Positions 39,929 through 41,712 of a stretch of 64,000 nt of DNA are shown piece by piece. The notes under the pieces are model-generated. The model had not been told where the DNA came from and made no database searches. It saw nothing but the letters and a program-made list of their open reading frames with translations. The translations under genes were made by a program, and so were the position numbers. This DNA comes from Escherichia coli (lineage in GTDB: Bacteria > Pseudomonadota > Gammaproteobacteria > Enterobacterales > Enterobacteriaceae), in assembly GCF_041248615.1 (NCBI RefSeq), contig NZ_CP158426.1; one strand, written 5' to 3'. Numbering within the stretch: position 1 is the first letter of the stretch; every line of letters begins with the position of its first letter.

Positions 39929-40615
39929 GTGAAAACACTGGCAGAACGATTAAAGATAGGTAGAGAGAAAGCTGGCATGAGCCAAGCTCAACTAGCTGAA
40001 AAAATTGGACTTTCACAACAATCTGTAGCCAAAATAGAGAATGGCGAAACTCTACAACCGCGCAAAATTAAAGAAATTGCAAAAGTTTTAGGTGTATCAC
40101 AAAAGTGGTTACAACTTGGTATTGAAGACAACGCATCCATACCTGATCTTGTTGTAAAAGAAGCAGAAAGCACCGCATTAGACCCCGATATTTTCGTAAA
40201 CATTCCTGTTTTAGATGTCGAGTTATCGGCAGGTAACGGATGTCTGGCTGAAATAGTTGAATCAGCTATTGACTGGTTTCCGTTAAGAAGAGCAGATTTG
40301 AGAAAATCTGGCGTATGTGCATCTAATGCCAAGATCGTACAAATATGGGGGAACAGTTTATTACCGGTTCTCAATAATGGAGATCTTGTTGCCGTTGATA
40401 TTTCTCAAACCGTTCCTATTCGTGATGGCGATCTTTATGCCGTACGAGATGGTGTATTGCTAAGGGTTAAAATACTTATCAACTTACCTGACGGTGGCTT
40501 GATTCTTAGAAGCTTCAACAAAGATGAGTACCCAGATGAAATACTCACCTTTGAAGATAGACGAGCCAGAATTCATGTTATAGGTAGGGTATTCTGGTCA
40601 TCGCGAACTTGGTAA
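39929..40615 (+). CDS. CI-like prophage repressor (HTH_XRE plus S24 LexA-like peptidase)
   Basis: N-terminal HTH (MSQAQLAEKIGLSQQSVAKIENGE); Ala-Gly cleavage site (SAGNG); Ser/Lys dyad context (WGNSLLP ... LRVK); GTG start with SD. Confidence 0.85.
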   Translation: MKTLAERLKIGREKAGMSQAQLAEKIGLSQQSVAKIENGETLQPRKIKEIAKVLGVSQKWLQLGIEDNASIPDLVVKEAESTALDPDIFVNIPVLDVELSAGNGCLAEIVESAIDWFPLRRADLRKSGVCASNAKIVQIWGNSLLPVLNNGDLVAVDISQTVPIRDGDLYAVRDGVLLRVKILINLPDGGLILRSFNKDEYPDEILTFEDRRARIHVIGRVFWSSRTW

Positions 40616-41488
40616 TGCATCGAAAAGCATTTCTTCAGAAATAATTTTAAGTTTTGCACCATTATCATCCCTATAAGATATAGCCTTTTCGATCTTCCTT
40701 CCGTGACTAGAGAATTTCCAATCACGGGAGGAAAGCGTCCCAATTACTAAAAAATCCAACTTTTGAGTAATTCCACTACTGATGTTCCCACCAGCATTTT
40801 TAATCAAATTTTCAACTACGGCTCTCTTTCCTGCAACAAAAGTGCCTGTAAGACAATAGGTTTTACCCTCTAACTCTATCGAAGCCCCTACATCAATAGG
40901 CAGCCTGGTCGCCAAACCATCCACCACCCCACTTTCCAAGTCACATCCTGTGAAGTCTACTAATGCCTTATGTAGAGTTAAACTCTCATCTTCAGTAATA
41001 ACACCATCTTTAAGAATTTCCTTTACAAGTGCATAAAGTTTTTTTCCTGGGTAGTTGTTCTTCAAAGCTCCATTTTGCTCAAGCCACCAATTAAGATATC
41101 TTATTTCTTCTTGAGTTAAGTTCCGATCAGCAATTAATCCTTTACATAGTCCATTAAGTAAATGGACATCTACATCCTTGGAGTAAAAATCAATTTCAGG
41201 GATATCAAGAATTTCCCTCTGTATTTGGAGAAGACTATTTTTAAGGTCATCACGTTCTTCTGATGTGATTATTCCATCCGCAAGAATATCCGACACCCGT
41301 GCAGATAGACTTTTTATAACTCCATTATTGATAATCTGCTTTGCTTCAAGTAACCATGTATCTAAGTAAAGAACCTCCTCTTCACGGACAACTCCATCTG
41401 CAATGATTCCATCAATGATGCTAATCAAGTTAGCAAATAACTTGTCCCGGTTCTGTGTGTAATTAAAAGCGTAAAGCGCGTCTTCCAT
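40598..41488 (-). CDS. protein with four TerB-like (DG-x3-EE) motifs and a C-terminal BRCT-like domain
   Basis: Motifs IIADGVVREEEVLYL, ILADGIITSEERDDL, LIADRNLTQEEIRYL, ILKDGVITEDESLTL; C-terminal EGKTYCLTGTFVAGKRAVVENLIKNAGGNISSGITQKLDFLVIG resembles BRCT; AAGGAGG SD; AT-rich. Confidence 0.5.
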   Translation of the reverse strand: MEDALYAFNYTQNRDKLFANLISIIDGIIADGVVREEEVLYLDTWLLEAKQIINNGVIKSLSARVSDILADGIITSEERDDLKNSLLQIQREILDIPEIDFYSKDVDVHLLNGLCKGLIADRNLTQEEIRYLNWWLEQNGALKNNYPGKKLYALVKEILKDGVITEDESLTLHKALVDFTGCDLESGVVDGLATRLPIDVGASIELEGKTYCLTGTFVAGKRAVVENLIKNAGGNISSGITQKLDFLVIGTLSSRDWKFSSHGRKIEKAISYRDDNGAKLKIISEEMLFDALPSSR

Positions 41489-41712
41489 ACAACCTCCTTT
41501 TTTTGATAATCCTTGCACTCCTTGGCTACTCGTTCAAACCACATAAAGTTGTTGACAACATTCAAAACCACAACTAAATTACAACTTAAAGGTGTTAAGA
41601 CAACGAACAGGCAGGACGCCCACGAAGTAGCCGCTTGGGGCATATGAAGTCCAGGATGATTCGTTGAGTCATGTTGTGCCACTAGGCACTCATGTTAAAG
41701 CAGGTGTATGAA

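What the first reader, a model, noticed from the sequence alone, without database searches (positions are those of the whole stretch)
40598..41518. TerB-like repeat plus BRCT-domain protein convergent with the CI repressor gene
The gene overlaps the 3-prime end of cI on the opposite strand, the slot where lambda carries rexAB. The protein has four evenly spaced DG-x3-EE helix motifs of the kind seen in TerB and DjlA N-domains, followed by a BRCT-like C-terminal domain (EGKTYCLTGTF ... LDFLVIG). I know of no characterised phage or defence protein with this architecture. The gene is AT-rich with a strong SD.
Basis: partly seen in the sequence, partly recalled or inferred. Interest (0 to 1): 0.72.

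Follow-up and report, generated by a model that had tools for sequence, protein, structure and literature searches.

The report
Prophage BRCT protein beside the repressor gene
A real, well-conserved but uncharacterised prophage gene sits tail-to-tail with the repressor gene; it encodes a DNA-end-binding BRCT domain behind a duplicated acidic helical domain, and is most likely an enzyme-free accessory protein that protects the lysogen from incoming DNA.

Summary
It lies between cI and the OL/pL region, the slot where lambda carries rexAB.

The C-terminus is a genuine BRCT of the RFC1/LigA DNA-binding class with a conserved phosphate pocket. The N-terminus is a tandem duplication of a ~90-aa four-helix unit carrying four D-x6-E motifs. 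"TerB-like" is only weakly supported: Pfam and profile-profile tests against real TerB are negative, and only some structural neighbours are annotated TerB or DjlA-N.

The family is large (1,092 clusters) and under strong purifying selection. It lies next to the repressor in at least five temperate-phage lineages. Longer relatives carry an N-terminal DEDDh exonuclease, match the untested PADLOC candidate PDC-S48, and one sits in the same prophage slot.

Best reading, by inference: a lysogen-expressed, nuclease-free DNA-end/nick-binding protein acting in superinfection defence. No experimental characterisation was found in the held literature. This is a solid lead, not a new category.

The parts
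40598..41488 (-). CDS of the 296-aa BRCT-domain protein (stop codon included); identical to RefSeq WP_000389078.1
   Evidence: Full-length match to PHROG 3989, E 1.5e-128. dN/dS 0.04-0.055 against 83-92% identical homologues.
41207..41461 (-). Helical unit 1 (residues ~10-94): four helices with motifs LxGxxxGIxADxxhxxxExxxLxxWL (D31/E38) and ILxDGxITxxE (D71/E78)
   Evidence: AF2 helices 10-28, 36-50, 56-69 and 76-94. Internal duplication shown. Column conservation.
40949..41179 (-). Helical unit 2 (residues ~104-180): duplicate of unit 1 (D121/E128, D161/E168)
   Evidence: The whole N-domain has pI 4.5 and net charge -15.
40616..40876 (-). BRCT domain (residues ~205-291) of the RFC1/LigA class; pocket residues T214-G215, R222, R255; family-specific SRDW...GRKIE insert (W257, G263 invariant; K265 83/84)
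41493..41497 (-). Shine-Dalgarno GGAGG, 4 nt upstream of ATG 41488
   Evidence: Read from the sequence. Conserved in Citrobacter and Serratia loci.
41509..41537 (-). Predicted promoter of the gene: -35 TTGAAC (41537-41532), 17-nt spacer ending in TGc (extended -10), -10 AAGGAT (41514-41509)
   Evidence: Both hexamers and the TG are conserved, while the spacer sequence differs, across E. coli, Citrobacter and Serratia. Not found by the strict consensus scan. This is an inference.
41537..41600 (.). OL-like operator cluster (AACCACATAAAGTTGTT at 41537-41553; ACAACTTAAAGGTGT at 41581-41595). It shares half-sites with the OR region at 39840-39900, and the proximal operator abuts the -35 of the gene's promoter.
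   Evidence: 12-mer ACATAAAGTTGT is identical in OR and OL, with near-palindromes. Invariant across genera.
41552..41580 (+). pL-like rightward promoter TTGACA-17-TAAATT, divergent from the BRCT gene
   Evidence: 10 of 12 matches. It overlaps the operators.
39929..40615 (+). cI-type repressor (228 aa, HTH_3 + Peptidase_S24); convergent partner whose last 18 nt overlap the BRCT gene
   Evidence: PHROG 4 'transcriptional repressor', E 2e-53. Pfam domains of orthologues.

Best explanation
The gene encodes a non-enzymatic, two-module protein carried as an accessory gene of the prophage immunity region.

Shown:
- The C-terminal module is a BRCT domain of the RFC1/LigA class, with the phosphate-binding Thr-Gly/Arg/basic pocket conserved.
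- The N-terminal module is a strongly acidic tandem pair of four-helix bundles with four conserved Asp...Glu motifs.
- The gene is inherited as a unit with its cI repressor. In other temperate-phage lineages it lies immediately downstream of the repressor in the lysogenic operon.
- Larger relatives have a DEDDh 3'-5' exonuclease fused in front of the same two modules.

Inferred:
- The protein is made in the lysogen from its own weak extended -10 promoter, whose -35 abuts the proximal OL operator. This resembles lambda OR2/pRM, so it may be CI-activated.
- It binds 5'-phosphorylated DNA ends or nicks on incoming DNA through the BRCT pocket. It then interferes with end processing or ligation, or hands the end to a nuclease supplied in trans. 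This protects the lysogen from superinfecting phages or other invading DNA.
- The acidic helical domain acts as a regulatory, sensing or partner-binding module.
For: Architecture:
- Pocket residues align to RFC1 T415/G416/R423/K458: T214 (T/S in 84/84), G215 (82/84), R222 (82/84), R255 (R/K in 60/84).
- The full-length AF2 model is confident (pLDDT 94.7, pTM 0.91).
- The N-domain is an internal duplication.

Real, selected gene:
- dN/dS is 0.04-0.055.
- 80 of 83 IMG/VR copies are intact.
- It is present in 46 of 5,426 complete E. coli genomes.
- There are 1,092 N-domain relatives among 50%-identity clusters.

Lysogeny-module placement in independent lineages:
- Enterobacterial lambdoids: 79 of 83 loci have a convergent cI within 40 nt, and BRCT and cI identities co-vary with r = 0.96.
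- Vibrio phage K139 (P2-like): cI-orf2-glo-int, in the operon annotated as lysogenic and next to the exclusion gene glo.
- Pseudomonas phage phi1: repressor followed by the BRCT gene.
- A high-GC prophage: cI, then two genes, then the BRCT gene; one of the two hits PADLOC PDC-M24B.
- A metagenomic P22-like module, L017.
- A prophage whose integrase is a serine recombinase: cro <- repressor -> HTH -> DEDDh-repeat-BRCT -> serine recombinase.

Link to nucleases and defence:
- 9 of 22 longer relatives carry RNase_T/DEDDh.
- They match PADLOC candidate PDC-S48 at E 1e-28 to 1e-33, and the window protein matches its C-terminal two-thirds.
- In Sulfurimonas phage SNW-1 the next gene is a thermonuclease.
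- The same prophage carries Borvo (BovA) near int.

Promoter and operator arrangement.
Against: - There is no experimental evidence for expression, DNA binding or phage exclusion. No held paper describes the function of K139 orf2 or any family member.
- The protein has no catalytic domain, so an effector step is missing.
- PDC-S48 is itself only a candidate.
- The third pocket residue is Pro or another residue in 24 of 84 members.
- BRCT pockets can also bind phosphoproteins or ADP-ribose rather than DNA ends.
- General nick binding should be toxic to host replication, which the model does not explain.
- Tight linkage to cI could reflect recombination boundaries rather than function.
- Three of 83 copies are disrupted.
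- The predicted promoter is weak and was missed by the consensus scan.
Confidence: 0.45

Rival explanations
1. A sensor or modulator of prophage induction. The BRCT domain reads DNA damage (5'-P gaps or ends), and the protein tunes CI stability, RecA-mediated cleavage or cI expression. Convergent transcription into the cI 3' end could contribute.
For: The gene co-inherits strictly and co-diverges with one cI immunity type (r = 0.96). It overlaps cI 3' end to 3' end with no clear terminator between them. Its promoter abuts a CI operator. The cI is an S24, LexA-like cleavable repressor. BRCT domains are classic damage-response modules.
Against: Relatives pair with unrelated repressors, in both orientations, and sometimes with other genes in between. 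A specific protein-protein partnership with this cI is therefore unlikely. The exonuclease fusions fit DNA attack better than regulation.
Confidence: 0.17
2. A phage DNA replication, repair or recombination accessory used during lytic growth. It would be an adaptor that brings host LigA, the clamp or an exonuclease to phage DNA ends or nicks, as the DnaQ-BRCT and LigA BRCT domains do.
For: The closest annotated matches are LigA BRCT, the C-terminus of PRK06195 'Pol III epsilon' and RFC1 BRCT. Mycobacterial DnaQ carries a BRCT. Relatives are fused to DEDDh exonucleases and to a DEAD/DEAH helicase.
Against: In the window the gene is transcribed away from pL and against cI, so it is outside both early operons. 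In K139 and phi1 it belongs to the repressor operon. The flanking replication modules are mosaic while the cI-BRCT pair stays constant.
Confidence: 0.13
3. A counter-defence decoy. It would be a nuclease-less copy of a PDC-S48-type host exonuclease that competes for the same DNA ends, or poisons its oligomer, so that the phage's own DNA is protected.
For: The window protein aligns to the non-catalytic two-thirds of the PDC-S48 profile (positions 239-377 of 411) and lacks the DEDDh domain. The very acidic N-domain (pI 4.5) could mimic nucleic acid.
Against: An exonuclease-bearing version occupies the same prophage slot, so both forms look like prophage cargo rather than host defence versus phage decoy. 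Placement in a lysogenic operon is atypical for anti-defence genes, which are usually early lytic.
Confidence: 0.1
4. A TerB-type metal or tellurite stress-response protein carried as a lysogenic-conversion gene.
For: The D-x6-E motif pattern is shared, and some Foldseek neighbours are annotated TerB family or DjlA N-terminal.
Against: Pfam TerB is negative. hhalign against real TerB gives 9.7% probability. There are no ter-operon neighbours. The fusions are to DNA enzymes.
Confidence: 0.03

Closest known systems
PADLOC candidate defence system PDC-S48 (DEDDh exonuclease - helical repeat - BRCT; untested)
   Same: It has the same helical unit and the same BRCT. The window protein matches profile positions 239-377 of 411 (E 2.4e-7). 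Exonuclease-bearing relatives of the N-domain match it at E 1e-28 to 1e-33, and one sits in a prophage lysogeny module.
   Different: The window protein lacks the DEDDh exonuclease entirely and has two helical units. PDC-S48 itself has no published function.
BRCT domains of RFC1 (p140) and NAD-dependent DNA ligase LigA
   Same: Same fold, with the Thr-Gly/Arg/basic phosphate pocket conserved. From my recollection of the Kobayashi et al. RFC p140 BRCT work, these domains bind 5'-phosphorylated DNA ends or nicks.
   Different: There are no clamp-loader or ligase catalytic domains; NCBIfam LigA scores are 20-28 bits against cut-offs of 369-1051. The family has its own SRDW...GRKIE insert.
Lambda rexAB, P22 sieB and other lysogen-expressed exclusion genes of the immunity region; K139 glo
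   Same: Same genomic slot, between cI and OL/pL, or in the cI operon directly beside glo in K139. Likely expression in the lysogen.
   Different: No sequence relationship; the PADLOC scan returned only PDC-S48. The gene is oriented opposite to cI, whereas rexAB is co-transcribed with it. The protein is soluble and DNA-binding, not a membrane or ion-channel system.
TerB / DjlA-N (TerB-like superfamily)
   Same: Acidic all-helical domain with paired (A)DG-x5-E motifs. Some AFDB structural neighbours carry these annotations (E ~1e-6 to 1e-7, TM 0.65-0.87).

Membership tests
BRCT (PF00533) | Significant match to the family HMM | tested here: met
   i-E 5.3e-5 for residues 206-290. 49 of 84 relatives match at E <= 1e-3, best 3e-10.
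BRCT (PF00533) | BRCT alpha/beta fold | tested here: met
RFC1/LigA-class DNA-binding BRCT | Conserved phosphate pocket (RFC1 T415-G416, R423, K458) | tested here: met
   T214, G215, R222 and R255 align to these residues. Conservation is 84/84 (T/S), 82/84, 82/84 and 60/84 (R/K). The residue roles in RFC1 come from my recollection of the literature.
RFC1/LigA-class DNA-binding BRCT | Binding of 5'-phosphorylated DNA ends or nicks | not testable with these tools
   Needs EMSA or fluorescence anisotropy with 5'-P versus 5'-OH substrates.
TerB (PF05099) | Match to the TerB HMM | tested here: not met
   No hit at E <= 10 for the protein. 1 of 84 relatives hits at E 0.09. 0 of 18 stand-alone N-domain proteins hit.
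TerB (PF05099) | Profile-profile homology to bona fide TerB | tested here: not met
   hhalign of A3 against Klebsiella, Pseudomonas and Streptomyces TerB: probability 9.7%, E 3e-3, 39 columns.
TerB (PF05099) | TerB-like fold | tested here: inconclusive
PADLOC PDC-S48 | DEDDh exonuclease domain plus full-length profile match | tested here: not met
   Only residues 119-251 match profile positions 239-377 of 411, E 2.4e-7. No RNase_T hit.
NAD-dependent DNA ligase LigA (name given by some sources) | Adenylation, OB, Zn and HhH domains; score above the NCBIfam cut-off | tested here: not met
   Matches are confined to LigA positions ~575-656 (the BRCT). Scores are 20-28 bits against cut-offs of 369-1051.
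DNA polymerase III epsilon-like PRK06195 (DEDDh + BRCT) | Exonuclease domain present | tested here: not met
   Only profile positions 217-303 of 309 match; 30 bits against a cut-off of 373.
Immunity-region exclusion genes (rexAB-like slot) | Located between cI and OL/pL, or in the cI operon | tested here: met
   Window layout. The same holds in K139, phi1, L017, L055 and L060.
Immunity-region exclusion genes (rexAB-like slot) | Expression in the lysogen and exclusion of superinfecting phage | not testable with these tools
   Needs transcriptomics and plaque assays.

The most novel reading that the evidence does not exclude
A CI-controlled, enzyme-free DNA-end sensor would be the first BRCT-based immune protein of bacteria. 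It would recognise the 5'-phosphorylated termini or unsealed cos nicks of superinfecting genomes and block their ligation or circularisation. The resident prophage, which excises as a closed circle, would be spared. Fusion to a DEDDh exonuclease in relatives would turn the same sensor into a direct DNA degrader.
Probability: 0.2. Interest if true: 0.8.

Novelty: new variant of a known kind. Interest (0 to 1): 0.55.

Why it matters
BRCT domains are central to eukaryotic DNA-damage signalling, but in bacteria they are known almost only as appendages of LigA and a few DnaQ-like exonucleases.

This is a free-standing BRCT protein family with more than 1,000 clusters of 50% identity. It is found repeatedly beside the repressor of unrelated temperate phages, with nuclease-fused cousins already flagged as a defence candidate.

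If it acts on DNA ends, it would add a sensing principle (5'-phosphate or nick recognition) to prophage-encoded immunity and give PDC-S48 a testable mechanism. If it instead tunes induction, it would be a new input into the lysis-lysogeny switch.

Either way the experiments are simple, because the gene is a single small ORF in E. coli.

Tried and rejected
- 'NAD-dependent DNA ligase' and 'Pol III epsilon' annotations were rejected, because only the BRCT region matches.
- The weak YmfL/CII hits were followed up by profile-profile comparison. They proved to be a short motif-level similarity only.
- Literature: seven full-text searches found nothing on this family. The two K139 papers that might describe orf2 (PMC93736, PMC135448) are not held.
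- The search for related loci failed with the 84-sequence alignment. With three single metagenomic representatives it found nothing in IMG/VR. A trimmed 8-sequence alignment worked but returned mostly the enterobacterial clade.
- Contexts of stand-alone N-domain proteins and of several representatives on short contigs were uninformative.
- The ~1,060-aa relatives (P0185, P0197) gave no family hits beyond the N-domain.
I could not check whether the acidic N-domain occludes the BRCT pocket.
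Full report
**1. What is in the sequence**

The minus-strand ORF 40598..41518 exists. Its first in-frame ATG is at 41488, preceded by GGAGG with a 4-nt spacer. RefSeq annotates exactly this 296-aa product (WP_000389078.1, 'BRCT domain-containing protein') in a 100% identical E. coli chromosome. All homologues align from this Met.

The stop codon lies 18 nt inside the 3' end of a 228-aa HTH + Peptidase_S24 repressor encoded on the other strand (39929..40615). GC content is 0.36-0.40 over both genes, against ~0.50 in the flanks.

**2. The slot**

Left of cI lie the OR region and a cro-like gene transcribed leftward. 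Right of the BRCT gene there is a cluster of operator-like near-palindromes (41537-41600) that share the 12-mer ACATAAAGTTGT and the ACAACTT(T/A)A(A)GGTGT element with OR. A rightward TTGACA-17-TAAATT promoter overlaps them. So the gene lies between cI and OL/pL, the place where lambda has rexAB, but it points towards cI.

On the gene's own strand, TTGAnn-N14-TGn-AAGGAT is conserved in E. coli, Citrobacter and Serratia while the spacer sequence differs. That pattern is expected of a functional extended -10 promoter. Its -35 abuts the proximal operator (centre about -44), which recalls lambda OR2/pRM. CI-dependent activation is an inference from this geometry only.

**3. The protein**

*BRCT domain.*
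- Pfam finds only BRCT.
- A profile of 84 family members hits the RFC1 BRCT (E 6e-9) and LigA BRCTs (E 2e-7) in the PDB.
- AlphaFold2 on that alignment gives a very confident single-body model (pLDDT 94.7, pTM 0.91). It has nine main helices (residues 10-180) followed by a BRCT fold.
- The residues that, as I recall from the RFC p140 BRCT work, hold the 5'-phosphate in RFC1 (T415-G416, R423, K458) align to T214-G215, R222 and R255. These are T/S in 84/84, G in 82/84, R in 82/84 and R/K in 60/84 family members.
- A family-specific SRDW...GRKIE segment has invariant W257 and G263 and near-invariant K265 (83/84).

*N-terminal region.* It is a tandem duplication of a ~90-aa unit (BLASTP of the two halves E 2e-12; hhalign 99.8%, E 4e-28). 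The region is strongly acidic (pI 4.5, net charge -15), whereas the BRCT is basic (pI ~9).

**4. Is the N-domain TerB?**

Evidence against:
- Pfam TerB does not match the protein. It matches 1 of 84 relatives at E 0.09 and none of 18 stand-alone N-domain proteins.
- I retrieved authentic TerB from Klebsiella, Pseudomonas and Streptomyces plasmids. Profile-profile comparison gave 9.7% probability and E 3e-3 over a single motif.
- That is the same level as against the cII-like YmfL/CP76 proteins of these very prophages, which also triggered weak NCBIfam and PHROG hits.

Evidence for: Foldseek against AFDB50 returns the family itself first, then ~170-aa proteins annotated 'TerB family tellurite resistance protein' (E 2e-7 and 6e-7, TM up to 0.87, 26-30% identity) and 'DjlA N-terminal domain' (E 1e-6).

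A superfamily-level relationship is therefore possible but unproven. Membership of TerB proper is not met.

**5. The wider family**

phmmer with the N-domain against 1.84 billion cluster representatives finds 1,092 proteins at E <= 1e-3 and 256 at E <= 1e-10. Most are ~290-300 aa with the same architecture.

Longer relatives (430-500 aa) have an N-terminal RNase_T/DEDDh 3'-5' exonuclease in front of the helical unit(s) and BRCT (9 of 22 examined, best E 7e-36; NCBIfam). These match the PADLOC phage-defence candidate PDC-S48 at E 1e-28 to 1e-33. The window protein matches only the non-catalytic part of that profile. No held paper mentions PDC-S48.

Other fusions include a ~1,000-aa DEAD/DEAH helicase and uncharacterised ~1,060-aa proteins. 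Shorter one-unit + BRCT versions occur in Pseudomonas and Sulfurimonas phages.

**6. Genomic context elsewhere**

- *Enterobacterial lambdoids.* In 83 IMG/VR loci of the enterobacterial clade, 79 have the convergent cI within 40 nt. One exception is a truncated contig and one is a frameshifted copy. BRCT and cI identities to the window co-vary with r = 0.96, while replication and early-left modules are mosaic.
- *Vibrio phage K139 (P2-like).* The 33%-identical orf2 lies in cI-orf2-glo-int, annotated as the lysogenic operon and next to the exclusion gene glo.
- *Pseudomonas phage phi1.* The gene directly follows the repressor.
- *A high-GC prophage (L055).* It follows cI after two genes, one of which matches defence candidate PDC-M24B.
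- *L017.* It lies two genes from a convergent cI with P22-type cro and cII.
- *L060, a prophage with a serine-recombinase integrase.* An exonuclease-bearing relative sits between the repressor genes and the serine recombinase.
- *Sulfurimonas phage SNW-1.* The next gene is a thermonuclease.

Placement beside the repressor, in either orientation and with unrelated repressors, argues that the product is wanted in the lysogenic state. It also argues against a specific partnership with one CI.

**7. Is it a live gene?**

dN/dS against 83-92% identical homologues is 0.04-0.055, the same as for cI. Eighty of 83 IMG/VR copies are intact. The 92% allele (two loci) has a Q242 stop inside the BRCT, and one copy is frameshifted. 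The gene is present in 46 of 5,426 complete E. coli genomes, once each and on the chromosome.

**8. Mechanism**

*Shown:* a catalytically inert protein with a phosphate-pocket BRCT of the DNA-end/nick-binding class, an acidic duplicated helical module, lysogeny-module placement, and relatives that add a 3'-5' exonuclease in cis or sit next to a nuclease.

*Inferred:* it is expressed in the lysogen and binds 5'-phosphorylated ends or nicks of incoming DNA. It then either blocks their sealing or processing, or recruits a nuclease, giving superinfection defence. The helical module would regulate this or bind a partner. I put this at 0.45.

*Rivals:*
- induction modulator or damage sensor (0.17);
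- lytic replication/repair adaptor (0.13);
- counter-defence decoy of PDC-S48-type enzymes (0.10);
- TerB-type stress function (0.03).

The main weaknesses are the absence of any experiment, the missing effector step, and the possibility that the BRCT pocket binds a phosphoprotein or an ADP-ribose-type ligand instead of DNA.

**9. Novelty**

The sequence family is already in databases under a generic name (RefSeq 'BRCT domain-containing protein', PHROG 3989 'unknown function'), and its nuclease-bearing cousins are a listed but untested defence candidate. I found no characterisation in the held literature.

I rate it a new variant of a known kind: an immunity-region accessory or defence gene, and a nuclease-less relative of PDC-S48. 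Interest is 0.55. It is a clean, widespread and experimentally tractable lead rather than a surprise.

Noticed in passing
window 47882-50011 (-): The 710-aa CHAT-domain protein next to the prophage integrase is BovA of the Borvo defence system (PADLOC PDLC03831, E 2.6e-241, full length). The prophage therefore carries a known defence gene at its int end.
   Followed up: partly
window 41906-42151 (-) and 41713-41988 (+): An 81-aa minus-strand ORF matches PHROG 3311 over its full length (E 4e-55), but it is not annotated in the identical RefSeq record. It overlaps, 3' end to 3' end, the annotated 91-aa gene (PHROG 3195). This is a second convergent overlapping pair just beyond pL.
   Followed up: partly
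window ~43045-43742: An IS1 element (InsA/InsB frames) is inserted between yfdP and yfdQ in the early-left region. The identical E. coli record also has an IS1414 further right, so the prophage is probably defective.
   Followed up: no
window 38968-39522 (-) (ymfL) and L055 2005-2571 (-): The cII-like YmfL/Phage_CP76 proteins of these prophages carry the same 'DGVV-x3-E' helix-turn-helix hairpin as the BRCT protein's repeats. This explains the weak YmfL and CII hits. Profile-profile comparison shows motif-level similarity only (probability 10.7%).
   Followed up: yes
L039 2237-3121, L040 5001-5885, L054 5001-5889: The 92%-identical allele has a Q242 stop inside the BRCT domain in two IMG/VR contigs. 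One 100%-identical copy is frameshifted near residue 176. All other copies examined are intact.
   Followed up: yes
L055 3557-4863: In a high-GC prophage, two genes (181 aa and 254 aa) sit between cI and the BRCT gene on the same strand. The 254-aa product matches PADLOC candidate PDC-M24B over its full length (E 4e-8). This suggests the post-cI slot is a defence-gene hotspot.
   Followed up: partly
L011 2929-3986 (Sulfurimonas phage SNW-1): A one-unit + BRCT homologue, mis-annotated as 'DNA polymerase', is immediately followed by a thermonuclease-family gene. This is a possible nuclease partner supplied in trans.
   Followed up: partly
L057-L059: The exonuclease-repeat-BRCT protein P0171 is followed in three independent contigs by the same 230-aa gene, which has no Pfam or PADLOC match. 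This may be a two-gene unit.
   Followed up: no
window 36862-37221 (-): A 119-aa 'LexA family transcriptional regulator', comprising only the LexA-like N-terminal DNA-binding part, is encoded in the replication/nin region of the prophage.
   Followed up: no
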